A DNA stretch of 64,000 nt from a phage. Of the stretch, positions 36-56,013 are shown one piece after another; the first letter of the stretch is position 1; each line of letters starts with the position of its first letter. The position numbers and the translations under genes are program-made. A model generated the notes under the pieces. It was not told the DNA's origin. It saw nothing but the letters and a program-made list of their open reading frames with translations, and searched no databases. Location: NCBI GenBank assembly GCA_033664045.1, contig GCA_033664045.1_3674.1; one strand, written 5' to 3'.

Positions 36-338
36 GTGGCAAGGATGCCACTTAAAAGAGTAATGAACATGTTATACCAGAAACACGAACTTTGTGCAGA
101 AAAAGAGTTAAATTTTGACAAAGTTATCCACAGATATTGTTATGGAAAAACCGGAAGACAACTAAGAAGATGCACTCCAGCATTCTTTCACCCCAGCAGG
201 CGGCTAAGTCCTGAAGAGGCGACAGCAGAAAGGGTTGCATACAACTGGGAAGTTGTGTACGATATTGACAGATCCGATGTGACATCTGTTTTGGAAAACT
301 TTGAAAACACTTACACACAAGTAGAGGACTTTTACTAA
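36..338 (+). CDS. hypothetical protein
   Basis: ORF co-directional with downstream operon; stop overlaps next start (TAATG). Confidence 0.4.
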   Translation: MARMPLKRVMNMLYQKHELCAEKELNFDKVIHRYCYGKTGRQLRRCTPAFFHPSRRLSPEEATAERVAYNWEVVYDIDRSDVTSVLENFENTYTQVEDFY

Positions 339-1522
339 TGTCAAGAAACGTATTTGAAAGTGGTCAAATCACTGTCCGTGAGTTGCCAGCTATCATTCAG
401 TTCGCCCAGCGTCATAACCGATCTGTCCTGATTTTAGGACCAATGGGCGTGGGTAAGAGCCAGGTGATGAAGCAGATTGCAGATAATATGTTCGGTGAGC
501 GAGATGACAACCTGGTTGACGTGCGACTGTCAGATAAAGATCCTGCTGACTTATCTGGGCTACCTATCCCTGTAGAAGCGGATGGAACTACACGTACAGT
601 GTTTGCAATTCCAGAATTTTGGCCTGCAGATCCGGACTGGAGCGGAATTATCTTTCTAGATGAGCTTACCCATGCAGATAATTACCTGCAGAAGGTTGCA
701 ATGCAAATTATGCTCGACCACAAGTGCGGCACTTATGCATTCCCTAAGGGCTCTGTTTTTGTAGCTGCAGGTAACCGTTCTACAGATGGTGCTGTTCTTT
801 CAGCGCTTGAAGCACCTCTGGCTAACCGCTTTATCATTGTAGAGGTTACAAGCAATGCAGAGGTGTTTATTGAGGACTATGCATTCCTCAACGGGGTGCA
901 CTCCTCTGTAATTGGGTATTTGAAAAGAGTTCCATCAGCTATCGATAATTATGAGGCTATGGCTGAGATTAATTGTCCATCTTTTGCCACACCGCGATCT
1001 TGGGTTGCTGCATCTGATATCTTGCACGATTTTGACAGCGGTATTATTTCTGACGCTATGGCCCGTGTTCTTCTGCAAGGTGCTATTGGTCACACTGCAG
1101 CGGTAGAGATCTGGACTTACCACACCAAAAAACGCAACTTACCGGAAATCGGTCGGATTATGGCAGGAGGTTGCAAAGAATACGTAGGTCCTAAACAGCC
1201 AGACATCTTGTGGATTCTTGGATCTGAAGGTTGTATCGCTATTCGTAATATGATGGAAAATGCAAGTATCTCCGACGAAGATCTTGTTAGCTGTGTGGCA
1301 AACTTCCTCGATTTCCTTTGGGAAAATTTCAAGGACGAGAACCGAGATTTTGTATTCTCAGTCTTTATGGCGATGATGAAACCTAATGCCTTAGGAAATG
1401 CCTTGCTTATCGGTAAAGGGCGTGACAAGATTGTTGCTCAGCTGATCAAAGCATACCCAAACCTGATGAAGATTGTAAAAGAGTTTGGTGAAGAGTTTAG
1501 CGCCATTTTGGCTAAAGCTTGA
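338..1522 (+). CDS. AAA+ ATPase (AAA_5 / MoxR-like)
   Basis: Walker A LILGPMGVGKSQ, Walker B IIFLDELTHA, downstream VFVAAGNRS sensor-like segment. Confidence 0.75.
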   Translation: MSRNVFESGQITVRELPAIIQFAQRHNRSVLILGPMGVGKSQVMKQIADNMFGERDDNLVDVRLSDKDPADLSGLPIPVEADGTTRTVFAIPEFWPADPDWSGIIFLDELTHADNYLQKVAMQIMLDHKCGTYAFPKGSVFVAAGNRSTDGAVLSALEAPLANRFIIVEVTSNAEVFIEDYAFLNGVHSSVIGYLKRVPSAIDNYEAMAEINCPSFATPRSWVAASDILHDFDSGIISDAMARVLLQGAIGHTAAVEIWTYHTKKRNLPEIGRIMAGGCKEYVGPKQPDILWILGSEGCIAIRNMMENASISDEDLVSCVANFLDFLWENFKDENRDFVFSVFMAMMKPNALGNALLIGKGRDKIVAQLIKAYPNLMKIVKEFGEEFSAILAKA

Positions 1523-47653: not shown

Positions 47654-47968
47654 CTACCAAGTTACTGTCAAGTAGGCAACAGTGTTATTTTTCTCTGGAG
47701 AGATGCCAACAACATCTACCTGCAGACCTCCTGCCCTCAAATCCCCAACAATATGCGGGAAGTAATCTGAGAGATGCGAGGGTAGATTTATCGAAAATCC
47801 GCATCCCAGAAAGCCTGCTAACGCTTTATTTTGTATCTCCCCTACAATCGCATCATAAATGGAGTTAAGCTCGTCAGGGAGCGTTACAGGACGTTTTAGC
47901 GCTAACTGGTGTAATTTGTCCTTAGCACTCATTTTCATTTCAGGTCTACCTCTGGGGGTGCCAACCAC
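47654..47968 (-). CDS. hypothetical protein
   Basis: co-directional ORF. Confidence 0.45.
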   Translation of the reverse strand: MVGTPRGRPEMKMSAKDKLHQLALKRPVTLPDELNSIYDAIVGEIQNKALAGFLGCGFSINLPSHLSDYFPHIVGDLRAGGLQVDVVGISPEKNNTVAYLTVTW

Positions 47969-48468
47969 ATAAACGGCGGCAAGTCTAAACGGTTTTTCTT
48001 ATCCCACACAAAATATGCATATGCTTGCCCGTCAGTTCTGCCATTTGATTGAAATGATGGACGCTTAGATATTGTGATCACAGTGGTAGGTGCATTATCA
48101 AGCCACCATTCAAATCTGGCTTTGCTTTCCAGAAAATTAAGACGCAAAAGCATAATAACTACGTCAGCATCTTTCAACGCCTTGTCTACGAACTCACGAG
48201 CCAGACTGTACGGTGGGTTGGTGATAATACAGTCAACATGGTTGTATTCTGTATTCAGATAGTCAACACCTTCTTGGATTTCTCCCCATGCAGATCCTAA
48301 CGGCATACGGGAGTAGAACACACCTGAGGCACTATTCCTGCAAGGCTCTAAGTAGGTCCAGTCCTCTGGGAACGGAATAAGGTCATACAGCCCTTCTGCA
48401 CACCACTCCGGTGTCACATACTCATCGTATGCGTTACGTTGTTCATCAGGTTTTCTAGCACAAGTCAT
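47935..48468 (-). CDS. DNA N6-adenine methyltransferase (small phage Dam-like)
   Basis: catalytic motif IITNPPYSLA (NPPY) in a 177-aa protein. Confidence 0.65.
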   Translation of the reverse strand: MTCARKPDEQRNAYDEYVTPEWCAEGLYDLIPFPEDWTYLEPCRNSASGVFYSRMPLGSAWGEIQEGVDYLNTEYNHVDCIITNPPYSLAREFVDKALKDADVVIMLLRLNFLESKARFEWWLDNAPTTVITISKRPSFQSNGRTDGQAYAYFVWDKKNRLDLPPFMWLAPPEVDLK

Positions 48469-48519: not shown

Positions 48520-49569
48520 TTAAGCTTCTTCGACAATTCCTGCACCCAGGATTTTTTCATTGAGCTCTTTTGCTGTTTTAATGATATTGTCCATCAGACG
48601 CTTGCGGGTCTTATCTTTCACCTTAATCTCTTCACCGCCGTTCAGAGTAGTCTTCAATTGAGACAGAATATCCTGAAGTTCGACGACAGAGAATCGCTGC
48701 AGATCTTCTGAAGTAATTTCACCCAAGGCGATCCGGACGGTCTCGCCACTTTCCATCTGCAGATTCAGGAACACAGTGTGAACATCGCCTTTCGTACCAT
48801 TTGCTTTTGCAGACTCAACAGCATGAACCAGCTCGTCCAGAGATGTGCATTGGTGAATCTCTGGCAGGCCTGCTTCGCCTAGCACACCTTCTTCATCACT
48901 TTTTGCCAAAAGCTTTTTCGGTTTCTGTCCATTCTGAATGCGCTGAATGTTTTCATCGTCCAGAATGATAGCACCAGTTCTAGATGCCAGCTCTTCTCCA
49001 TCTAACCACACTTCACCGCCAGCTGTAATGGATGCGATCTCATCTTCTGTTAGCACCCCACCGTAGTATTTTTCAATCAGGCGTTCAAAACGTTTCTTCC
49101 AGTAGTTGATCTGAGTATTCATGTTCACACCGTTACCATAGGTGCCACCTTGATAGTAGTGGAACATAAACTCTGTGTCCGGAGCCACAGTGCGTTCTTT
49201 GCAACCCAGCCATAGGATTGTTCCAGCAGAGCAGCACATACCTTCAGCATGTGCAACAACGCTTGCCTGAGACTCGCGGAATGCCTGCAGATAAGCCATT
49301 GCAATGTGCACGCAACCACCAGGACTATTGATGATCACCCGAATGCTTTCTTCAGGCTGAGCCATACGGATCGTCTGCAGACGAGACATATGATCTTGTA
49401 AGTCTTCCAGATCGTCGATATAAAGAACGTGGTCAACAACAGGTGTTGGGTAGCTGTATGTCTCCATAATACCACCCGGCATACCAAACATTTTATTACT
49501 CATAGGTTCAAAACCGTTCTGTTTTTCTTTCATACCGTGTACCATGGTGCTGCGAGGTGTTAAATTCAT
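48520..49569 (-). CDS. ClpP-family (S14) serine peptidase-like protein with C-terminal extension
   Basis: INSPGGCVHIAMAYLQAF...AEGMCCSAGTILWLG...FMFHYYQGG collinear with ClpP NSPGG / GxAASMG / HQP segments; about 150 extra C-terminal residues. Confidence 0.7.
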   Translation of the reverse strand: MNLTPRSTMVHGMKEKQNGFEPMSNKMFGMPGGIMETYSYPTPVVDHVLYIDDLEDLQDHMSRLQTIRMAQPEESIRVIINSPGGCVHIAMAYLQAFRESQASVVAHAEGMCCSAGTILWLGCKERTVAPDTEFMFHYYQGGTYGNGVNMNTQINYWKKRFERLIEKYYGGVLTEDEIASITAGGEVWLDGEELASRTGAIILDDENIQRIQNGQKPKKLLAKSDEEGVLGEAGLPEIHQCTSLDELVHAVESAKANGTKGDVHTVFLNLQMESGETVRIALGEITSEDLQRFSVVELQDILSQLKTTLNGGEEIKVKDKTRKRLMDNIIKTAKELNEKILGAGIVEEA

Positions 49570-49628
49570 GAGAAATCCTTAATATTGGAAGTTGAAAGCT
49601 ATTTATTAAACCTGATTCACATTTACCT

Positions 49629-49940
49629 TTATTTAGCAATCACTATAGAATACTTACGATTGTCAGAAGCATCACAGCTCAAGGATTGCCAGTCTACCAC
49701 ATACCACGTATCATTGTCAACAATTACTTTATCGCCTGTTCTGTAGCAGGTGCTGCTTTCAATAATCCGAGACTCGATAAAGAATCTGTGTCGGCGCTCA
49801 CGTAGCAACGCTAAGTTGATTATATTACCACCACTGTCCTTGATCCACACATTCTTGGATCCTTTATTTGCCAAAATTGTCTCTCCGTTATAGACAAACA
49901 GGCAGTATATTTTATTCAGTCTCTCTTGTATTGTAGCCAT
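49629..49940 (-). CDS. hypothetical protein
   Basis: ORF downstream of minus-strand promoter. Confidence 0.5.
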   Translation of the reverse strand: MATIQERLNKIYCLFVYNGETILANKGSKNVWIKDSGGNIINLALLRERRHRFFIESRIIESSTCYRTGDKVIVDNDTWYVVDWQSLSCDASDNRKYSIVIAK

Positions 49941-49970
49941 ACTATCTCCTTCTACTTGTCTTGTCCGATA

Positions 49971-49999
49971 ATAATATCTAAAGCTTACCTGTTTGTCAA
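49971..49999 (-). promoter_or_regulatory. sigma70-like promoter (minus strand) TTGACA-N17-TATTAT
   Basis: minus-strand reading: TTGACAaacaggtaagctttagaTATTAT. Confidence 0.5.
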
Positions 50000-50043
50000 C
50001 AACTGTTTTAGATATTTAAGGGTGGAATAACCACCCTTCTGTA

Positions 50044-50832
50044 TTACTCGGAAACAGGGGTCCAAATATGATTTGCACGATCCTCGATAAGATTGAGTGC
50101 AATCTGACGACCCAACCCGGAACGAACGACATCATCTGGACTATCAAAGCTGATCATTCCAACCTCAGGATCTGGATGGCGAGTAAAGAAATCCGTCACC
50201 CATGCAAGGCCAGATTTACCAGGGATGTCACGTTGGCTATTATCGCCCATAATTACAAGGGTGGCCTGATCAGAGATCCTTGTGATAATTGACAACATTT
50301 CTTCAGGGTTAGTTTGCTGTGCCTCGTCAATCAGGACAAAGCATCGCTCATCGAAACTACGACCACGAATGCTTTCAACTTCACAAATCTCGATACGGCT
50401 GTTCTGACCGTCTCCCAGCATTGCGGCAAAAGCACCTTTGCCAACACGACGACAAATAGTGTCCATCATACTACGAAGGTAAGGCCAAAGCTTCTGCATT
50501 GACGTTCCCGGTTTGTATCCGCTTGATTTTCCGGTCTGTACATAAGGACGTGCAACAATGATCTTATCAATCTCGTTCTTACGCAGAAGATCACCTGCAT
50601 ATGCAGATGCCATGAACGTCTTACCAGACCCAAACACACCGTTTACAATAATAATCTTACGTGACCCTAGATAATCAAGATACTTTTGCTGCTTCTTATT
50701 CATTGGTCGGAGAGCTGGAGCGGTGTGCTCTCGTTCGTCAGCAAATTTCTCAGCAGCCTTGCGCAAGCGATCAGATTTGCGAGCCTCTCTAGCTTCATCA
50801 CGCATGCGTTTTGTTTCTTTAGCTCGACCCAT
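50044..50832 (-). CDS. phoH: PhoH-like ATPase
   Basis: Walker A GVFGSGKTF, Walker B FVLIDEAQ, PhoH signature IMGDNSQRD. Confidence 0.85.
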   Translation of the reverse strand: MGRAKETKRMRDEAREARKSDRLRKAAEKFADEREHTAPALRPMNKKQQKYLDYLGSRKIIIVNGVFGSGKTFMASAYAGDLLRKNEIDKIIVARPYVQTGKSSGYKPGTSMQKLWPYLRSMMDTICRRVGKGAFAAMLGDGQNSRIEICEVESIRGRSFDERCFVLIDEAQQTNPEEMLSIITRISDQATLVIMGDNSQRDIPGKSGLAWVTDFFTRHPDPEVGMISFDSPDDVVRSGLGRQIALNLIEDRANHIWTPVSE

Positions 50833-51331: not shown

Positions 51332-51395
51332 TTGGCACCTCCTCTGCTTTCATTTTACGATAATTATACCTATCTAAACAAAGCTTTGTCAACAA

Positions 51396-52034: not shown

Positions 52035-52967
52035 TCATTTACCACAAATCTTCTTGTATACCTCTTCTACCGTGTCAAACACTTCAGGCCTGTAGTAGAA
52101 AAACTCAGTGCTACCGTCAAATTTTACAGGAAAGTTTATTTTATACTTGCTGAAGGCCTTATGCACAGATTTTTCTAAATCTACCATGTTTTGAGTTGAT
52201 CCGCTCCATGTTTTTACTACGTGAAGAGTGTGGACACCTGCGCCAGATTTACGAGCACTGTTAAGCACCTCATTTTTCCTCCTGTGCATTTTAACGCATA
52301 CACCGATTTTCATAAGTGTTGGCACTTCTAAGTCATCAACCATAATGTAGAGTTTACCGTACTCATGAGATAAGAATCCATTTTGTGCGCATTTACAGCA
52401 GCCACGACCACTTTTTAGGTTATTAGGTTTAGCAGACCACTTATACCCACAAATTTTGCACCTACATTGCACTTTTGTGTTATCATTGGCAATTTCCTCT
52501 AATATTTCTATATCTGGGTTGGCTTTGTGGATAATTGCAGCATGCTCCTTATGGGTTAACGCTTGACTTTGCCCACGTCTTAAGTCATAGCACTCTGGGC
52601 AGCCGTTTCTTTGGTATAAGTGGTTTTCAGGGTATTGTTCAAACACACCGTGTTCAGGGCAAACAATTTTTACAGGCGTTCTCATGTTCACATATTTGAC
52701 TAATGAGTAATCGTACTTGTCCCCATGAACAGCCATAGCCTCTTTTATGAACTCTTCAGTGTTCTTTTTCGCTGACCCACCACACCTTGGACAACCATGC
52801 TTCTTGAAAGCATGTGCCACAGGGGTTTGCCAGAACTCACCGTGCTCAGGACAAATTATGCACACAGGTGTCTTGTTGTTTTTATACTCCACTTTGAAGT
52901 AATCATATTTGTCACCATGTATAGTCTGAGCTTTTTCTATAAACTCTTCGGTTGTTAGTCTCCTCAT
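52035..52967 (-). CDS. putative homing endonuclease (T5orf172 / GIY-YIG-like C-terminal domain)
   Basis: three repeated modules HGDKYDY...V.I.CPEHG.F.Q.P..H...GCP.C, then KLYIMVDD...LMKIGVC...RRKNEV. Confidence 0.55.
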   Translation of the reverse strand: MRRLTTEEFIEKAQTIHGDKYDYFKVEYKNNKTPVCIICPEHGEFWQTPVAHAFKKHGCPRCGGSAKKNTEEFIKEAMAVHGDKYDYSLVKYVNMRTPVKIVCPEHGVFEQYPENHLYQRNGCPECYDLRRGQSQALTHKEHAAIIHKANPDIEILEEIANDNTKVQCRCKICGYKWSAKPNNLKSGRGCCKCAQNGFLSHEYGKLYIMVDDLEVPTLMKIGVCVKMHRRKNEVLNSARKSGAGVHTLHVVKTWSGSTQNMVDLEKSVHKAFSKYKINFPVKFDGSTEFFYYRPEVFDTVEEVYKKICGK

Positions 52968-53076: not shown

Positions 53077-54366
53077 TTATTTACTCAACGGACAACAGTC
53101 TACATTCCCAACATGTTTAACACGTTCGATAACCTCTGCTTGTTTACCTGTGTTATACGGTCTACTGTTCGGGCTGGAGAGATAGCCAGACACTCTTCGG
53201 ATCACTGAGATATATTGTTCATCGTGGCATCCACACGCAGGGCAGCAGAACCCTTTAGCTGTTGCACTGAACTCACCAGAGAAACCACACTTAAGACATT
53301 TATCCACAGGTTGGTTAATACCAAAATACATAATGTGTTTATACCCGAAATCGACAAGGGCTTCCAAAGCATCCAAGTTGTTTTTCAGGTTAGGTGTTTC
53401 TATGTATCCAATGTTGCCGCCAGAAGAGATCATAGCAAAACCTTCCTCATACTTCCACTTATCAAAAGGCGAGCTGTTGATCCATACTGGCTGATGGAAA
53501 CTGTTGGTGAGGTATTCATGCTCGTGCTTCAACACTTCTGGGTATTCACGATCCAGACAGGTTGCAGCTTTATAGCATAAACTCTCAGAAGGTGTGCCGT
53601 ACAAGCTAAATGCTAGTCCACTTTCCTTCTTATATCGATCACAAGCATCTTTCATATGCTGAAGGATTCCAAGAGCTAAAGCCTTGTCACCCTCTCTGCC
53701 CAAAATTTGGCAGGTTTCATACACACCAATATACCCAATACTGATGGAAGCGTACCCGTCATAGAAGAGTTTATCGATACTCTCTTCAGGATCCAGGCGA
53801 GCAAGAGCTCCTTCACACCACATGATAGGGTTCTGCCCAGCCTTGGTGCCTTTCAAACGATTAACTCTTACAAGGTGAGCCTCATATGCCAAATCCAAGT
53901 ATTCGTCAAGAACGGCAAAGAAATCAACACCTTCCGTCTTAGCTTTTGCCGCAATCATTGGCAGGTTAAGACTAACAACCCCCAAGTTGAATCTGCCGAG
54001 GTATTTCTCCTCACCTGTTTCCAAGTCATTGTATTTGCTAAGAAAACTCCGGCAACCCATGCTCGTTACTTTGCCATCTGTAGAGCCTGTCACTTTACGA
54101 TTTAGTGGAACAGAAACAAAGTCAGGATAAATCCGCTCTGCAGAGCATTCCAGAGCTAATCGTTTCAAATCATAGTTAGGATCTCCAGGGTTCATGTTGA
54201 CACCTTCTTCTAGGAAGAACAGCACTTTAGGGAACACAGGTGTGATACGTTCTTCACCAAGACCCATTTTGTGGACTTTCAAGTAGTTTTTGGTAATCAT
54301 TCTACCAAATACTGAGGTGTCCAGACCTAAACTTAATGTGATGAATGGAGTCTGCTGTCTCCTCCC
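53077..54366 (-). CDS. nrdD: anaerobic ribonucleoside-triphosphate reductase, 3' exon (glycyl-radical half)
   Basis: QQTPFITLSLGLDTS...GDPNYDL collinear with E. coli NrdD QVPFSSINYGT...GDPNYDL; Zn ribbon CLKCG...CPACGC; glycyl-radical motif RRVSGY. Confidence 0.85.
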   Translation of the reverse strand, partial: GRRQQTPFITLSLGLDTSVFGRMITKNYLKVHKMGLGEERITPVFPKVLFFLEEGVNMNPGDPNYDLKRLALECSAERIYPDFVSVPLNRKVTGSTDGKVTSMGCRSFLSKYNDLETGEEKYLGRFNLGVVSLNLPMIAAKAKTEGVDFFAVLDEYLDLAYEAHLVRVNRLKGTKAGQNPIMWCEGALARLDPEESIDKLFYDGYASISIGYIGVYETCQILGREGDKALALGILQHMKDACDRYKKESGLAFSLYGTPSESLCYKAATCLDREYPEVLKHEHEYLTNSFHQPVWINSSPFDKWKYEEGFAMISSGGNIGYIETPNLKNNLDALEALVDFGYKHIMYFGINQPVDKCLKCGFSGEFSATAKGFCCPACGCHDEQYISVIRRVSGYLSSPNSRPYNTGKQAEVIERVKHVGNVDCCPLSK

Positions 54367-55161
54367 CTGTGTTTCCACAGGGCCAGACTATCTCTTACTC
54401 TACTTCAATAAGATAATAACCCTTTATTGTGAGATGCTTACCTTCGGCATTTCCTTCGATAGCCCTATGAACGTTACCTACGTTCAAATTTAAGGCTTTT
54501 GCACAGGCATAGAGTGAAGGATATTCACCCACCAAGGTTTTCCCTTTGTATGCCTGCACTTTCCTATAGCACTTGCCTGGGCAAAGCCCTGTTCGGAAAG
54601 CATGTCTCTTATTATCTTCCGGCAAAACCCACTCTAGGTTAGACGGATGATCATTCAATGTATTGCCGTCTTTATGATTCACTTCCCAGTTTTCAGGGTC
54701 TTCTGGGACATCTGGCAAACAATACAAGGCAACAATCCTTGAGGTTTGGATTCGAATCTTTTTACCTTTGTGGTTGAAAGAGTACATATAACGGCGTTTA
54801 ACATGCTTGTTACCTTTTCCATAACCTCCCCACAATATTGGGTGTAGCATTCCACGTTTTCCGTATACGTTTCCAACCTCATCAATCACATAGTTTGATT
54901 CTTCACCATTAAGAATGATCTTTTTCATAGAGCCTCTCCATTTCGAAGTTAGTATTTCAACTAACCCCTACACTACTTGGTTCAGAAATGTTTGTCAAGC
55001 ATCTCTGCCTTTCGTTAGTCGTTACAACCGTTCCAACTCCTGTAAGAACTAGTCACGGGATTGGCATAGCTTTCGCCTTAGCGTTCCCCGTTAGCCGGAT
55101 TTACCGACCCCTCTTATGAGGTTAGGAGAGTTTTACAACGGCCAGTTTGTTAACCGTTGAC
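54367..55161 (-). mobile_element. putative group I self-splicing intron interrupting nrdD
   Basis: splits a collinear NrdD reading frame; 5' exon ends in U, proposed intron ends in G; P7-like GACUA ... UAGUC segments; carries HNH ORF. Confidence 0.6.
54395..54928 (-). CDS. HNH homing endonuclease (intron-encoded)
   Basis: HNH core EVNHKDGNTLNDHPSNLEWVLPEDNKRHA. Confidence 0.8.
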   Translation of the reverse strand: MKKIILNGEESNYVIDEVGNVYGKRGMLHPILWGGYGKGNKHVKRRYMYSFNHKGKKIRIQTSRIVALYCLPDVPEDPENWEVNHKDGNTLNDHPSNLEWVLPEDNKRHAFRTGLCPGKCYRKVQAYKGKTLVGEYPSLYACAKALNLNVGNVHRAIEGNAEGKHLTIKGYYLIEVE

Positions 55162-56013
55162 AGAAGTTAACGTATTGATTTGATAAAGCAACGTCTGCAT
55201 GCTGTCAAACACGTCTTTATCTGTCATTTGCATTGCAACAGTCTCAGCATCTGGCAACCAATGTTCCTGGCAAAACTTAAGGTTCTTCTCATAGGTTGCT
55301 TCAGCATATTGTGCCAGATAATGATCAATATGGCTCATAGTCTGACCACCATATTGAGCACTAGCTACCGCACTAGAGATTTGGCTAAGGATTGTTGTTG
55401 CAACCCCTATTGACTTCGGCTTACTGACATGGGCGTTGCCAATGTTGAATCCGTTTTCCAACATATCTGGATAATTTACCAAACAACAGTTTGTTAACGG
55501 ACTGATCAAGTAGTCAAGATCATGCACATGGATGAAGCCTCTATTGTGCTCTTCTGAGACACGGTCTGGCAGGATTTGTGTTGATGCAAGGTGTTTGCTA
55601 AGGATGCCTGCAAGCAGGTCACGATGAGTGTGTACATGATTGGTAGGCTTATTTGCGTTTTCTTTTGTAAATTCATCACAAGTGCGATCCAAGAAGCCAC
55701 TAATATCTGCAAGCAGTTTTCCACCTGCCTCTCTGTTATTATCTCTTGTCTGCCTATACTGGATGTATTCTCTGGCTGCACATTTTAAACCCATATCCAT
55801 AAAAGCGTCTTCAACAAGGGTATGGATATTTTTTACAGAGATCGTGCACTGGTCGGTTGGTAGATTGTTAGCAACAACTTCATTAACCGCGCAGGCGATC
55901 CGGTAAGCTTCTTCTTCAGTATGCCCAGACTCAAGTAAGGCGGACTCTGCCGCCTTGATCACCTTAATTCCGTTATAGACCTCTTCTCTACCGTCCCGTT
56001 TTACAACTTTCAC
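55162..56013 (-). CDS. nrdD: anaerobic ribonucleoside-triphosphate reductase, 5' exon (ATP-cone half)
   Basis: ATP-cone MKVVKRDGREEVYNGIKVIKAAESA; HVHDLDY; ends ...YQINTLTS; track ORF 55150-56013 reads into intron. Confidence 0.8.

What the first reader, a model, noticed from the sequence alone, without database searches (positions are those of the whole stretch)
48520..49569. ClpP-like protease with a long C-terminal extension, outside any structural module
The N-terminal roughly 200 aa are collinear with ClpP, but about 150 extra C-terminal residues follow, and the gene sits among early/metabolic genes with no capsid genes in this window. It may be a prohead protease with a fused scaffold-like domain placed atypically, or a regulatory protease targeting host proteins.
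Basis: partly seen in the sequence, partly recalled or inferred. Interest (0 to 1): 0.5.

Follow-up and report, generated by a model that had tools for sequence, protein, structure and literature searches.

The report
Non-virion ClpP-like phage protease paired with PhoH
This is a real but already annotated gene of rV5-like E. coli phages: a ClpP-shaped serine protease with a private C-terminal domain that is not the capsid-maturation protease, cannot dock the host unfoldases in the usual way, and sits in many unrelated phages directly beside the enigmatic PhoH ATPase gene.

Summary
ORF 48520-49569(-) encodes 349 aa: a disordered N-terminus (1-43), a ClpP fold (44-212), a variable linker (213-265) and a conserved 84-aa C-terminal module. 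The window is a Vequintavirus (rV5-like) phage, and the gene is rV5 gene 122, annotated "ClpP protease subunit" in more than 100 genomes.

It is not the prohead protease. Close relatives carry portal, an XkdF-type protease, scaffold, decoration and capsid genes about 30 kb away at the nearest. Published virion proteomes list that protease but not this protein.

It is also not a canonical ClpP:
- Ser114 and His137 are invariant, but the triad Asp is Glu here and Gln in most close relatives.
- The hydrophobic ClpX/ClpA docking pocket is replaced by family-invariant polar residues.

The C-terminal module has no relatives outside this fusion (7 cluster representatives among 1.84 billion proteins) and no convincing fold match.

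The new finding is gene linkage. A PhoH-like ATPase lies on the same strand next to ClpP-like genes in at least 15 divergent clusters, including Vequintavirinae, ICP1, Barbavirus, Otagovirus and a Curvibacter phage.

Most likely it is a cytoplasmic, early or middle peptidase working in a PhoH-linked module. Its substrates are unknown.

The parts
48520..49569 (-). ClpP-like peptidase gene (349 codons plus stop); orthologue of rV5 gene 122
49441..49569 (-). Residues 1-43: N-terminal region predicted disordered. It holds the conserved FG-x-PG and YSYP motifs (F28, G29, Y40, P41 invariant or near-invariant). It may be a propeptide or a counterpart of the ClpP axial loop.
   Evidence: pLDDT is below 50. 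Conservation is shown.
48934..49440 (-). Residues 44-212: ClpP-fold catalytic core, including the handle helix 147-169
   Evidence: pLDDT is about 90. Foldseek matches ClpP structures. A family HMM aligns to E. coli ClpP.
49228..49230 (-). Codon of Ser114, the catalytic nucleophile in the motif CCSAGT (ClpP S97 equivalent)
   Evidence: Invariant in alignments A1 and A3. The position is mapped.
49159..49161 (-). Codon of His137 in the motif FMFHYYQGG (ClpP H122 equivalent)
   Evidence: Invariant. The position is mapped.
49012..49014 (-). Codon of Glu186 in the motif GGEVWL, at the position of ClpP's catalytic Asp171
   Evidence: The HMMER alignment to P. aeruginosa ClpP pairs 'ERDFWL' with 'GGEVWL'. 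The column is D, E or Q across the wider phage group.
49183..49341 (-). Stretch holding R77, I79, E99, H107, E109, T127 and A129. These replace E. coli ClpP Y60, Y62, F82, I90, M92, F112 and L114, the hydrophobic pocket that binds ClpX/ClpA IGF loops and ADEPs.
   Evidence: Searches give gap-free alignment segments anchored on INSPGG, GxxxS and the catalytic His. R77, E99, H107 and E109 are invariant in the family.
48775..48933 (-). Residues 213-265: flexible, lineage-variable linker. Vequintavirus carries a specific insertion forming a low-confidence helix at 244-257.
48523..48774 (-). Residues 266-349: conserved C-terminal module with a beta-hairpin (267-281) and helices (287-290, 295-309, 322-342). 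It is acidic (pI 5.0).
   Evidence: It has no relatives outside this fusion. No significant fold match was found.
49971..49999 (-). Sigma-70-type promoter-like site TTGACA-17-TATTAT (11 of 12 matches), upstream of the 103-aa ORF and the ClpP-like gene
   Evidence: This is a consensus match only.
49629..49940 (-). 103-aa ORF of unknown function between PhoH and the ClpP-like gene; conserved within Vequintavirus-like loci
   Evidence: no Pfam match. tblastn finds 37-73% identity in L010-L013 and L024.
50044..50832 (-). PhoH-like P-loop ATPase (262 aa, basic, pI 9.2), the conserved upstream partner gene
   Evidence: Pfam PhoH at E=6e-47. PDB 3b85 at E=2e-27. Linkage is shown.
47935..48468 (-). 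Small DNA methyltransferase-like gene (177 aa) immediately downstream. It is syntenic in all Vequintavirinae loci, and a Dam-type methyltransferase occupies the same position in Barbavirus.

Best explanation
The gene encodes a non-structural serine peptidase of the ClpP fold that is a core gene of Vequintavirinae (rV5 gene 122). It is made in the infected cell from the replication and nucleotide-metabolism transcription unit. It is not the capsid-maturation protease.

Its active site is Ser114-His137 with Glu186 at the place of ClpP's Asp; most close relatives have Gln there. It has lost the hydrophobic clefts that true ClpP uses to dock ClpX or ClpA, so the database label 'ATP-dependent Clp protease subunit' is unsupported. 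Residues 266-349 form a family-specific acidic alpha/beta module on a flexible linker. This module most likely provides partner or substrate recognition.

The gene belongs to a conserved, co-oriented gene pair with a PhoH-like ATPase, so the two probably act in one pathway. The likeliest role is intracellular proteolysis of host or phage proteins during takeover or replication.

Shown here: the fold, the catalytic Ser and His, the altered triad and pocket, the genomic position, the uniqueness of the C-terminal module, and the PhoH linkage. Inferred: expression timing, oligomeric state, cytoplasmic substrates, and functional coupling to PhoH.
For: Fold and family:
- establish the ClpP fold and family match.
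- Catalytic residues are covered.

Pocket:
- Y60, Y62, F82, I90, M92, F112 and L114 of E. coli ClpP become R, I, E, H, E, T and A.
- The E. coli sequence used was verified against PDB 3mt6.

Not in the head module:
- Searches show the window has no head genes and relatives have a complete head module elsewhere.
- rV5 places genes 82-163 in one transcription unit with sigma-70-like promoters, whereas late genes 27-66 carry a different motif.
- A promoter-like site lies at 49999-49971.

Not detected in virions:
- The rV5, W70 and CB7 proteomes do not list it.

C-terminal module:
- A profile search of 1.84 billion proteins returned only 7 representatives. The five whose sequences were inspected are ClpP-fused, plus two short fragments.

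PhoH linkage:
- PhoH lies upstream on the same strand in Vequintavirinae, ICP1, Barbavirus, Curvibacter P26059A, Otagovirus VCM (overlapping ORFs), Vibrio 5P1b and IMG/VR contigs.
- Starting from PhoH, 33 of 79 viral PhoH loci have a ClpP-like gene within 6 kb on the same strand. This is 24 of 27 in the PhoH clade of this window.
- 64 loci carry both genes, always co-oriented, spanning 23 ClpP-like clusters at 50% identity and 15 at 40%.

Other phages:
- Related stand-alone ClpP-like genes sit among replication or nucleotide-metabolism genes in a T4-like Vibrio phage, an N4-like Alteromonas phage, Pakpunavirus and Sugarlandvirus.
- Iyer et al. 2021 (PMC7824862) independently proposed that patchily distributed phage ClpPs target the host.
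Against: - No experiment shows activity, timing, oligomeric state or substrates.
- The protease domain scores higher against 'ClpP-related head maturation protease' (NF045542, 61 bits) than against cellular ClpP models (34-40 bits). A morphogenetic ancestry, or a residual morphogenetic role, is therefore possible.
- Maturation proteases are often absent from mature virions, so the negative proteomes are weak evidence. The held rV5 mass-spectrometry file may also be truncated.
- The Gln at the triad position in most relatives raises the question of how active those enzymes are.
- PhoH linkage is absent in several lineages (JG004, VAC35, D491s, AD45-P1, 1.026.O) and in 0 of 36 loci of another PhoH clade. 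It could reflect co-regulation or co-transfer rather than joint function.
- The promoter is only a consensus match.
Confidence: 0.6

Rival explanations
1. Displaced or second head-maturation protease. A ClpP-related prohead protease with a C-terminal capsid-targeting or scaffold-like domain is encoded away from the head module and enters procapsids to cleave scaffold or internal proteins.
For: The best NCBIfam match is NF045542 'head maturation protease, ClpP-related' at E=1e-16. Several 'head maturation protease' PHROGs match at E=1e-14 to 5e-23, and phrog_1684 matches out to residue 260. The C-terminal helix-loop-helix loosely recalls coat-binding ends of scaffolding proteins; this is my inference from the model.
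Against: Scores are below the family cut-off (61 against 120 bits). The head module already has an XkdF-type protease and a scaffold, and that protease is the one seen in virions. The gene sits in a replication and nucleotide-metabolism unit on the opposite strand from late genes. The C-terminal module has no similarity to the scaffold or the head protease. T4-like and N4-like phages that have their own maturation systems also carry stand-alone homologues.
Confidence: 0.1
2. Canonical ClpP, as annotated: a proteolytic subunit that forms tetradecamers and is driven by host ClpX or ClpA, supplementing or replacing host ClpP during infection.
For: The Pfam CLP_protease match is above the gathering score. 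The fold is ClpP-like, including the handle helix and the GG-x-x-G strand. Phage G encodes a ClpP and ClpX pair.
Against: Seven pocket residues needed for IGF-loop docking are polar or charged and are invariant as such. The Asp170/Arg171-type segment before the triad acid is Gly-Gly. The scores are far below the ClpP equivalog cut-offs, for example 33.8 against 308.6 bits for TIGR00493. No ClpX- or ClpA-like gene is in the window; the 394-aa ATPase at 338-1522 looks MoxR-like and shares only the Walker A region with Clp ATPases.
Confidence: 0.08
3. Modulator of host ClpP. The protein co-assembles with, or caps, host ClpP rings and so inhibits or re-targets host proteolysis, rather than acting as an independent enzyme.
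For: The ClpP fold and handle region are retained. The conserved N-terminal FG-x-PG motif lies in a disordered tail, which could in principle mimic IGF-type loops. This is speculation only.
Against: Identity to ClpP is only about 20%. The invariant catalytic Ser and His argue for an active enzyme. Hosts of the family range from Vibrio to Curvibacter, with highly divergent sequences.
Confidence: 0.05

Closest known systems
Bacterial ClpP (MEROPS S14, Pfam PF00574; e.g. E. coli ClpP, PDB 1tyf/3mt6)
   Same: Same fold over about 165 residues (Foldseek E about 4e-10, target TM about 0.7). The INSPGG motif, the nucleophile Ser in a GxxxS-x-G context, the catalytic His, the Gly-rich strand after it and the handle helix are all present.
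   Different: About 20% identity. The triad Asp is Glu or Gln. The preceding Asp/Arg segment is Gly-Gly. The hydrophobic unfoldase/ADEP pocket is replaced by R/E/H/E/T. It has an extra 43-aa N-terminus and a roughly 140-aa C-terminal extension. It is phage-encoded and linked to PhoH rather than to clpX.
ClpP-related phage head-maturation proteases (NCBIfam NF045542 and NF045540; PHROGs 1684, 94, 2976, 133)
   Same: These are the closest sequence models for the protease domain (E=1e-16 to 5e-23). They often carry C-terminal extensions.
   Different: The score is below the cut-off. The gene is not between portal and capsid genes. The genome has a separate XkdF-type head protease and scaffold. 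The protein is not in virion proteomes. None of about 60 head-type IMG/VR loci has PhoH nearby.
Stand-alone ClpP-like genes of other lytic phages (ICP1 ORF211, Otagovirus VCM_00144, Barbavirus gp074, Curvibacter P26059A ORF116, Vibrio 5P1b; PHROG 1827; jumbo-phage ClpP noted by Iyer et al. 2021)
   Same: Same protease domain at 25-35% identity. They are non-structural and have PhoH immediately upstream on the same strand. Several carry their own C-terminal tails (ICP1 326 aa, 5P1b 303 aa, P26059A 268 aa).
   Different: Most keep Asp at the triad position. Their tails are not detectably homologous to the Vequintavirinae module (hhalign probability below 1%). None has been characterised functionally in the papers I could search.

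Membership tests
ClpP (MEROPS S14 / Pfam PF00574) | ClpP/crotonase-type fold of the protease core | tested here: met
   AlphaFold core pLDDT is about 90. All top Foldseek PDB hits are ClpP.
ClpP (MEROPS S14 / Pfam PF00574) | Score above the curated family thresholds | tested here: inconclusive
   The Pfam gathering score is met (48.1 against 20.2 bits). The NCBIfam/TIGRFAM ClpP equivalogs are far from met (33.8 against 308.6; 38.6 against 249).
ClpP (MEROPS S14 / Pfam PF00574) | Ser-His-Asp catalytic triad | tested here: not met
   Ser114 and His137 are invariant. The Asp position is Glu186 here and Gln in most Vequintavirinae relatives; it is Asp or Glu in more distant phage homologues.
ClpP (MEROPS S14 / Pfam PF00574) | Hydrophobic surface pockets that dock the IGF/LGF loops of ClpX, ClpA or ClpC | tested here: not met
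   Y60, Y62, F82, I90, M92, F112 and L114 map to R77, I79, E99, H107, E109, T127 and A129. The polar replacements are invariant in the family.
ClpP (MEROPS S14 / Pfam PF00574) | Double-heptamer (tetradecamer) chamber and ATP-dependent protein degradation with an AAA+ partner | not testable with these tools
   No multimer prediction or biochemistry is available. The Asp/Arg oligomerisation-sensor segment is replaced by Gly-Gly.
ClpP-related phage head-maturation protease (NF045542) | Score above the curated cut-off | tested here: not met
   61.2 bits against a cut-off of 120.
ClpP-related phage head-maturation protease (NF045542) | Gene located in the head module, next to portal, scaffold and major capsid genes | tested here: not met
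   The window has no head genes. In MaxBurger the head module is at 0.7-7.7 kb and this gene at about 106 kb of 136 kb.
ClpP-related phage head-maturation protease (NF045542) | It is the phage's only candidate maturation protease | tested here: not met
   A Peptidase_S78_2 (XkdF) protease lies between the portal and scaffold genes. It is found in W70 and CB7 virions.
SppA / lambda gpC type (MEROPS S49) | Ser-Lys dyad and a Peptidase_S49 profile match | tested here: not met
   No S49 match at E up to 1. There is no invariant Lys in the family alignment.
PHROG 5410 (Vequintavirinae 'ATP-dependent protease') | Full-length profile match including the C-terminal extension | tested here: met
   E=2.3e-154, residues 24-345 against profile positions 4-322 of 323.
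SAP / HeH / Rho_N helix-extended-loop-helix domains (for the C-terminal module) | Significant profile or fold match; basic DNA-binding surface | tested here: not met

The most novel reading that the evidence does not exclude
The PhoH-like ATPase and the ClpP-like peptidase may form a previously unrecognised two-component, phage-encoded degradation machine. In it a PhoH ring, not an AAA+ unfoldase, would engage the peptidase. Contact could be through the invariant polar patch that replaces the IGF pocket and/or the acidic C-terminal module meeting PhoH's basic N-terminal tail. Nucleotide hydrolysis, or RNA or RNP remodelling, would thereby be coupled to proteolysis. That would give phage PhoH, a widespread marker gene of unknown function, its first defined partner and activity.
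Probability: 0.15. Interest if true: 0.8.

Novelty: new variant of a known kind. Interest (0 to 1): 0.45.

Why it matters
The gene itself is ordinary in one sense: it is present and annotated in every rV5-like phage.

Three results change how it should be read:
1. The label 'ATP-dependent Clp protease subunit' is propagated through hundreds of phage records. It is probably wrong in mechanism, because the docking pocket is gone and the triad is altered.
2. It is not a morphogenetic protease. Large lytic phages of several families therefore carry a dedicated intracellular peptidase of unknown target.
3. Its tight, co-oriented linkage to one clade of phage PhoH genes gives a concrete handle on PhoH. 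That gene is used for years as a marine-virus marker, yet its role in infection remains unexplained.

rV5-like phages of the BASEL collection infect E. coli K-12 and are genetically tractable, so the hypothesis is directly testable.

Tried and rejected
- **Sequence relatives of the C-terminal module.** A profile search of 1.84 billion representatives found only the same fusion family. Weak Pfam hits (MpsC E=0.003-0.005, DUF7744, HeH, SAP) are below cut-offs and occur in 1-2 of 13 members, so I rejected them.
- **Similarity of the C-terminal module to other tails or head proteins.** Comparisons to the head scaffold, the XkdF protease and the ICP1 tail gave hhalign probabilities below 1%.
- **Defence or anti-defence models.** PADLOC gave no hit for the protease.
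- **Literature.** I found no paper characterising a Vequintavirinae, ICP1 or other stand-alone phage ClpP-like protein, and none on a PhoH-ClpP link. The Rheinheimera phage transcriptome paper does not mention the protease.
- **Locus retrieval.** Single-protein IMG/VR scans with the Barba, Curvibacter and ICP1 proteins returned almost only the same phages. Alignments A3 and A4 were too divergent for the locus finder.
- **E. coli ClpP alignment.** The MAFFT alignment mis-placed the ClpP C-terminus. I therefore took the Asp171 mapping from the HMMER alignment and the column.
- **rV5 mass-spectrometry supplement.** It has no entry of 38,541 Da, but the held file may be cut, so I treat this as weak evidence.
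Full report
**What is there**

ORF 48520-49569 on the minus strand encodes 349 aa from an ATG preceded by AAGGA. Pfam CLP_protease matches residues 59-168 (E=1.6e-12, above the gathering score). PHROG 5410 'ATP-dependent protease' matches the full length (E=2e-154).

The 2-kb region is 95-98% identical to more than 100 Vequintavirus (rV5-like) genomes, where the gene is called a ClpP or ATP-dependent protease subunit. It is rV5 gene 122, also 349 aa. The exact protein is in NCBI on a 137-kb contig.

**Anatomy**

An alignment of 16 family members (A1) and an AlphaFold model (mean pLDDT 75) give four parts:

| Residues | Feature |
|---|---|
| 1-43 | Disordered N-terminus with conserved FG-x-PG and YSYP motifs |
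| 44-212 | ClpP core, pLDDT about 90 |
| 213-265 | Disordered, lineage-variable linker with a Vequintavirus-specific insertion |
| 266-349 | Conserved module: beta-hairpin plus helices; F293, E297, R322 invariant; pI 5.0 |

Foldseek places the core with bona fide ClpPs (E about 4e-10, TM about 0.7).

**Is it a canonical ClpP?**

Ser114 and His137 are invariant. At the position of ClpP Asp171, the HMMER alignment pairs ClpP 'ERDFWL' with 'GGEVWL'. This makes the residue Glu186 here. In the wider alignment the column is as follows:
- Gln in PVP-SE1-like and most other Vequintavirinae.
- Asp in ICP1, Sugarlandvirus, a T4-like Vibrio phage and an N4-like Alteromonas phage.
- Glu in JG004 and CR8.

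The Asp/Arg segment preceding it in ClpP is an invariant Gly-Gly.

I verified my E. coli ClpP sequence against PDB 3mt6. I then mapped the residues that form the ClpX/ClpA/ADEP docking pocket, taking their identity from my knowledge of the ClpP-ADEP and ClpXP structures. Y60, Y62, F82, I90, M92, F112 and L114 correspond to R77, I79, E99, H107, E109, T127 and A129. The alignment segments are gap-free and anchored on INSPGG, the nucleophile motif and the catalytic His. R77, E99, H107 and E109 are invariant in the family.

NCBIfam ClpP equivalogs score 22-40 bits against cut-offs of 228-361. No Clp-type unfoldase is in the window. The 394-aa ATPase at 338-1522 shares only the Walker A region with ClpB and ClpC, and looks MoxR-like to me.

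I conclude that it has the ClpP fold and very probably peptidase activity. The defining partner-docking feature of ClpP was tested and not met, and the triad is non-canonical.

**Is it the prohead protease?**

The window holds only early, replication and nucleotide-metabolism genes. These are rIIA, rIIB, Dda, primase-helicase, DNA polymerase, NrdAB, NrdDG, PhoH, thymidylate synthase and methyltransferases.

In MaxBurger (95% identical at this locus) the head module lies at 0.7-7.7 kb. This gene lies at about 106 kb of 136 kb. The head module contains:
- terminase,
- portal,
- a 139-aa protease,
- a 325-aa scaffold-annotated protein,
- a decoration protein,
- the major capsid protein.

The head-module protease matches Pfam Peptidase_S78_2 (XkdF) at E=9e-18 and PHROG 1530.

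Published virion proteomes list that head-module protease for Septuagintavirus W70 (phrog_1530) and Certrevirus CB7 (annotated 'prohead core protein protease'), and no ClpP-like protein. The rV5 virion list does not include gene 122. The rV5 authors place genes 82-163 in one transcription unit with sigma-70-like promoters, distinct from late genes 27-66. An 11-of-12 sigma-70 consensus site lies at 49999-49971, upstream of the 103-aa ORF and this gene.

The C-terminal module has no similarity to the head scaffold or head protease. Against this, the protease domain scores best against ClpP-related head-maturation models (NF045542 at 61 bits with a cut-off of 120; head-maturation PHROGs at E down to 5e-23). 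It may therefore descend from such a protease. I put the displaced-prohead-protease reading at about 0.1.

**The C-terminal extension**

By eye the last two helices resemble a SAP/HeH motif, and similar motifs end the tails of the ICP1, 5P1b and Barba homologues. However, the Pfam support is sub-threshold (HeH 0.086 and SAP 0.15, each in 1 of 13 members; nothing for the tails alone), and the module is acidic. I therefore do not assign it to that family. It is a family-private domain, presumably for partner or substrate recognition; this is an inference.

**The neighbourhood result**

PhoH lies two genes upstream here. The same order recurs in several phage groups:

| Phage group | Gene order |
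|---|---|
| Seunavirus, Certrevirus and all other Vequintavirinae-like loci except one | PhoH, 1-3 small genes, ClpP-like, methyltransferase |
| ICP1 | PhoH, two ORFs, a 326-aa ClpP-like protein with its own tail |
| Barbavirus | PhoH, ClpP-like, Dam |
| Curvibacter phage P26059A | PhoH and ClpP-like 10 bp apart |
| Otagovirus VCM | PhoH and ClpP-like ORFs overlap |
| Vibrio phage 5P1b | PhoH, a 62-aa ORF, a 303-aa ClpP-like protein |
| IMG/VR contigs | PhoH upstream of ClpP-like |

In every locus holding both genes they are co-oriented.

Starting from PhoH instead, 79 IMG/VR PhoH loci split into three groups by identity to the query PhoH set:

| PhoH identity | Loci with a ClpP-like gene | Arrangement |
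|---|---|---|
| 56% or more | 24 of 27 | Directly downstream; includes nine 31-107 kb contigs that are not Vequintavirinae |
| 35-42% | 0 of 36 | None |
| 28-30% | 9 of 16 | About 2 kb upstream, same strand |

The linked ClpP-like proteins fall into 23 clusters at 50% identity and 15 at 40%. None of about 60 head-type ClpP-like loci has PhoH within 8 kb. Linkage is absent in Pakpunavirus JG004, Sugarlandvirus, a T4-like Vibrio phage and two N4-like phages. In those phages the gene nevertheless sits among replication, nucleotide-metabolism or lysis genes rather than in a head module.

There are caveats. The loci were collected by similarity, some contigs were fetched twice, and inheritance of a cassette can inflate counts. 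Still, the pair persists while flanking genes differ and while both proteins have diverged to 20-35% identity.

I found no paper noting this pair. Iyer et al. 2021 suggest that patchy phage ClpPs may target the host and call phage PhoH enigmatic.

**Mechanism proposed**

The protein is an intracellular peptidase with a Ser114-His137-Glu186 active site. It is expressed with replication and nucleotide-metabolism genes, is independent of ClpX/ClpA docking, and uses its C-terminal module for recognition. It acts in one pathway with PhoH.

The fold, residues, genomic position and linkage are shown. The timing, oligomeric state, substrates and any physical PhoH contact are inferred.

The most novel reading not excluded is a PhoH-driven two-component degradation machine, which I put at about 0.15. 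PhoH is basic (pI 9.2, with a very basic N-terminal tail) and the peptidase is acidic (pI 5.0). The only solved relative of PhoH is 3b85. From memory, it has been discussed as forming a hexameric ring. This is compatible with the reading but is not evidence for it.

**Verdict**

This is a real, already annotated gene. It is a variant of the ClpP kind rather than a member of canonical ClpP or of the prohead-protease family. Interest is moderate, and rests mainly on the mis-labelled mechanism and the PhoH linkage.

Noticed in passing
window 48520-50832 (-); loci L003, L005, L006, L010-L028, L089-L099, L102-L126, L157, L164-L175: A PhoH-like ATPase gene and a ClpP-like peptidase gene form a co-oriented pair in many unrelated phages. 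From the PhoH side, 33 of 79 viral PhoH loci have the pair, 24 of 27 in this window's PhoH clade. The linked ClpP-like proteins fall into 15-23 sequence clusters. The searchable literature does not describe this pair.
   Followed up: yes
window 53077-56013 (-): The anaerobic ribonucleotide reductase gene nrdD is split. ORF 55150-56013 holds the ATP-cone plus NRDD profile positions 1-154, and ORF 53077-54378 holds positions 155-562. An HNH endonuclease ORF (54395-54928) lies between them. This looks like an intron carrying a homing endonuclease; nrdD is intact (2124 nt) in phage LL12.
   Followed up: partly
window 52035-52967 (-): A 310-aa ORF with DUF723/CapR zinc-finger repeats and a T5orf172 domain lies between nrdG and nrdD. 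It looks like a free-standing homing endonuclease. LL12 has three tiny ORFs at this position instead.
   Followed up: partly
window 338-1522 (+): A 394-aa AAA+-type ATPase (phrog_1297) lies just upstream of rIIA and rIIB. Its only PDB similarity is about 50 residues around the Walker A motif of ClpB and ClpC. By sequence it looks MoxR-like rather than an unfoldase.
   Followed up: partly
window 51363-51392 (-) and 49971-49999 (-): There is a perfect 12-of-12 sigma-70 consensus site (TTGACA-18-TATAAT) upstream of the 116-aa ORF and PhoH. An 11-of-12 site lies upstream of the 103-aa ORF and the ClpP-like gene. The region holds 15 promoter-like sites against 8.6 expected.
   Followed up: partly
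GenBank records MG065644-MG065690 (hits H7-H10, H15-H17, H21-H25): Nineteen records labelled 'Campylobacter phage', all unannotated, are about 95% identical to this E. coli rV5-like region. This suggests mislabelled or contaminating Vequintavirus genomes.
   Followed up: no
L018 and L019 8960-9499; L005 2038-2670: A homologue of ICP1 ORF209, the gene between PhoH and the ClpP-like gene in ICP1, is inserted between the ClpP-like gene and the methyltransferase in two Klebsiella-phage-like loci (30% identity, E=2e-11). PVP-SE1 and CR8 carry a 'DprA-like' gene of the same length as ORF209 right after PhoH. Further genes may therefore travel with this module.
   Followed up: no
window about 36000: GC skew changes sign at about 36 kb, coinciding with the switch from plus-strand to minus-strand genes. 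These appear to be divergent or convergent transcription units, as described for rV5.
   Followed up: no
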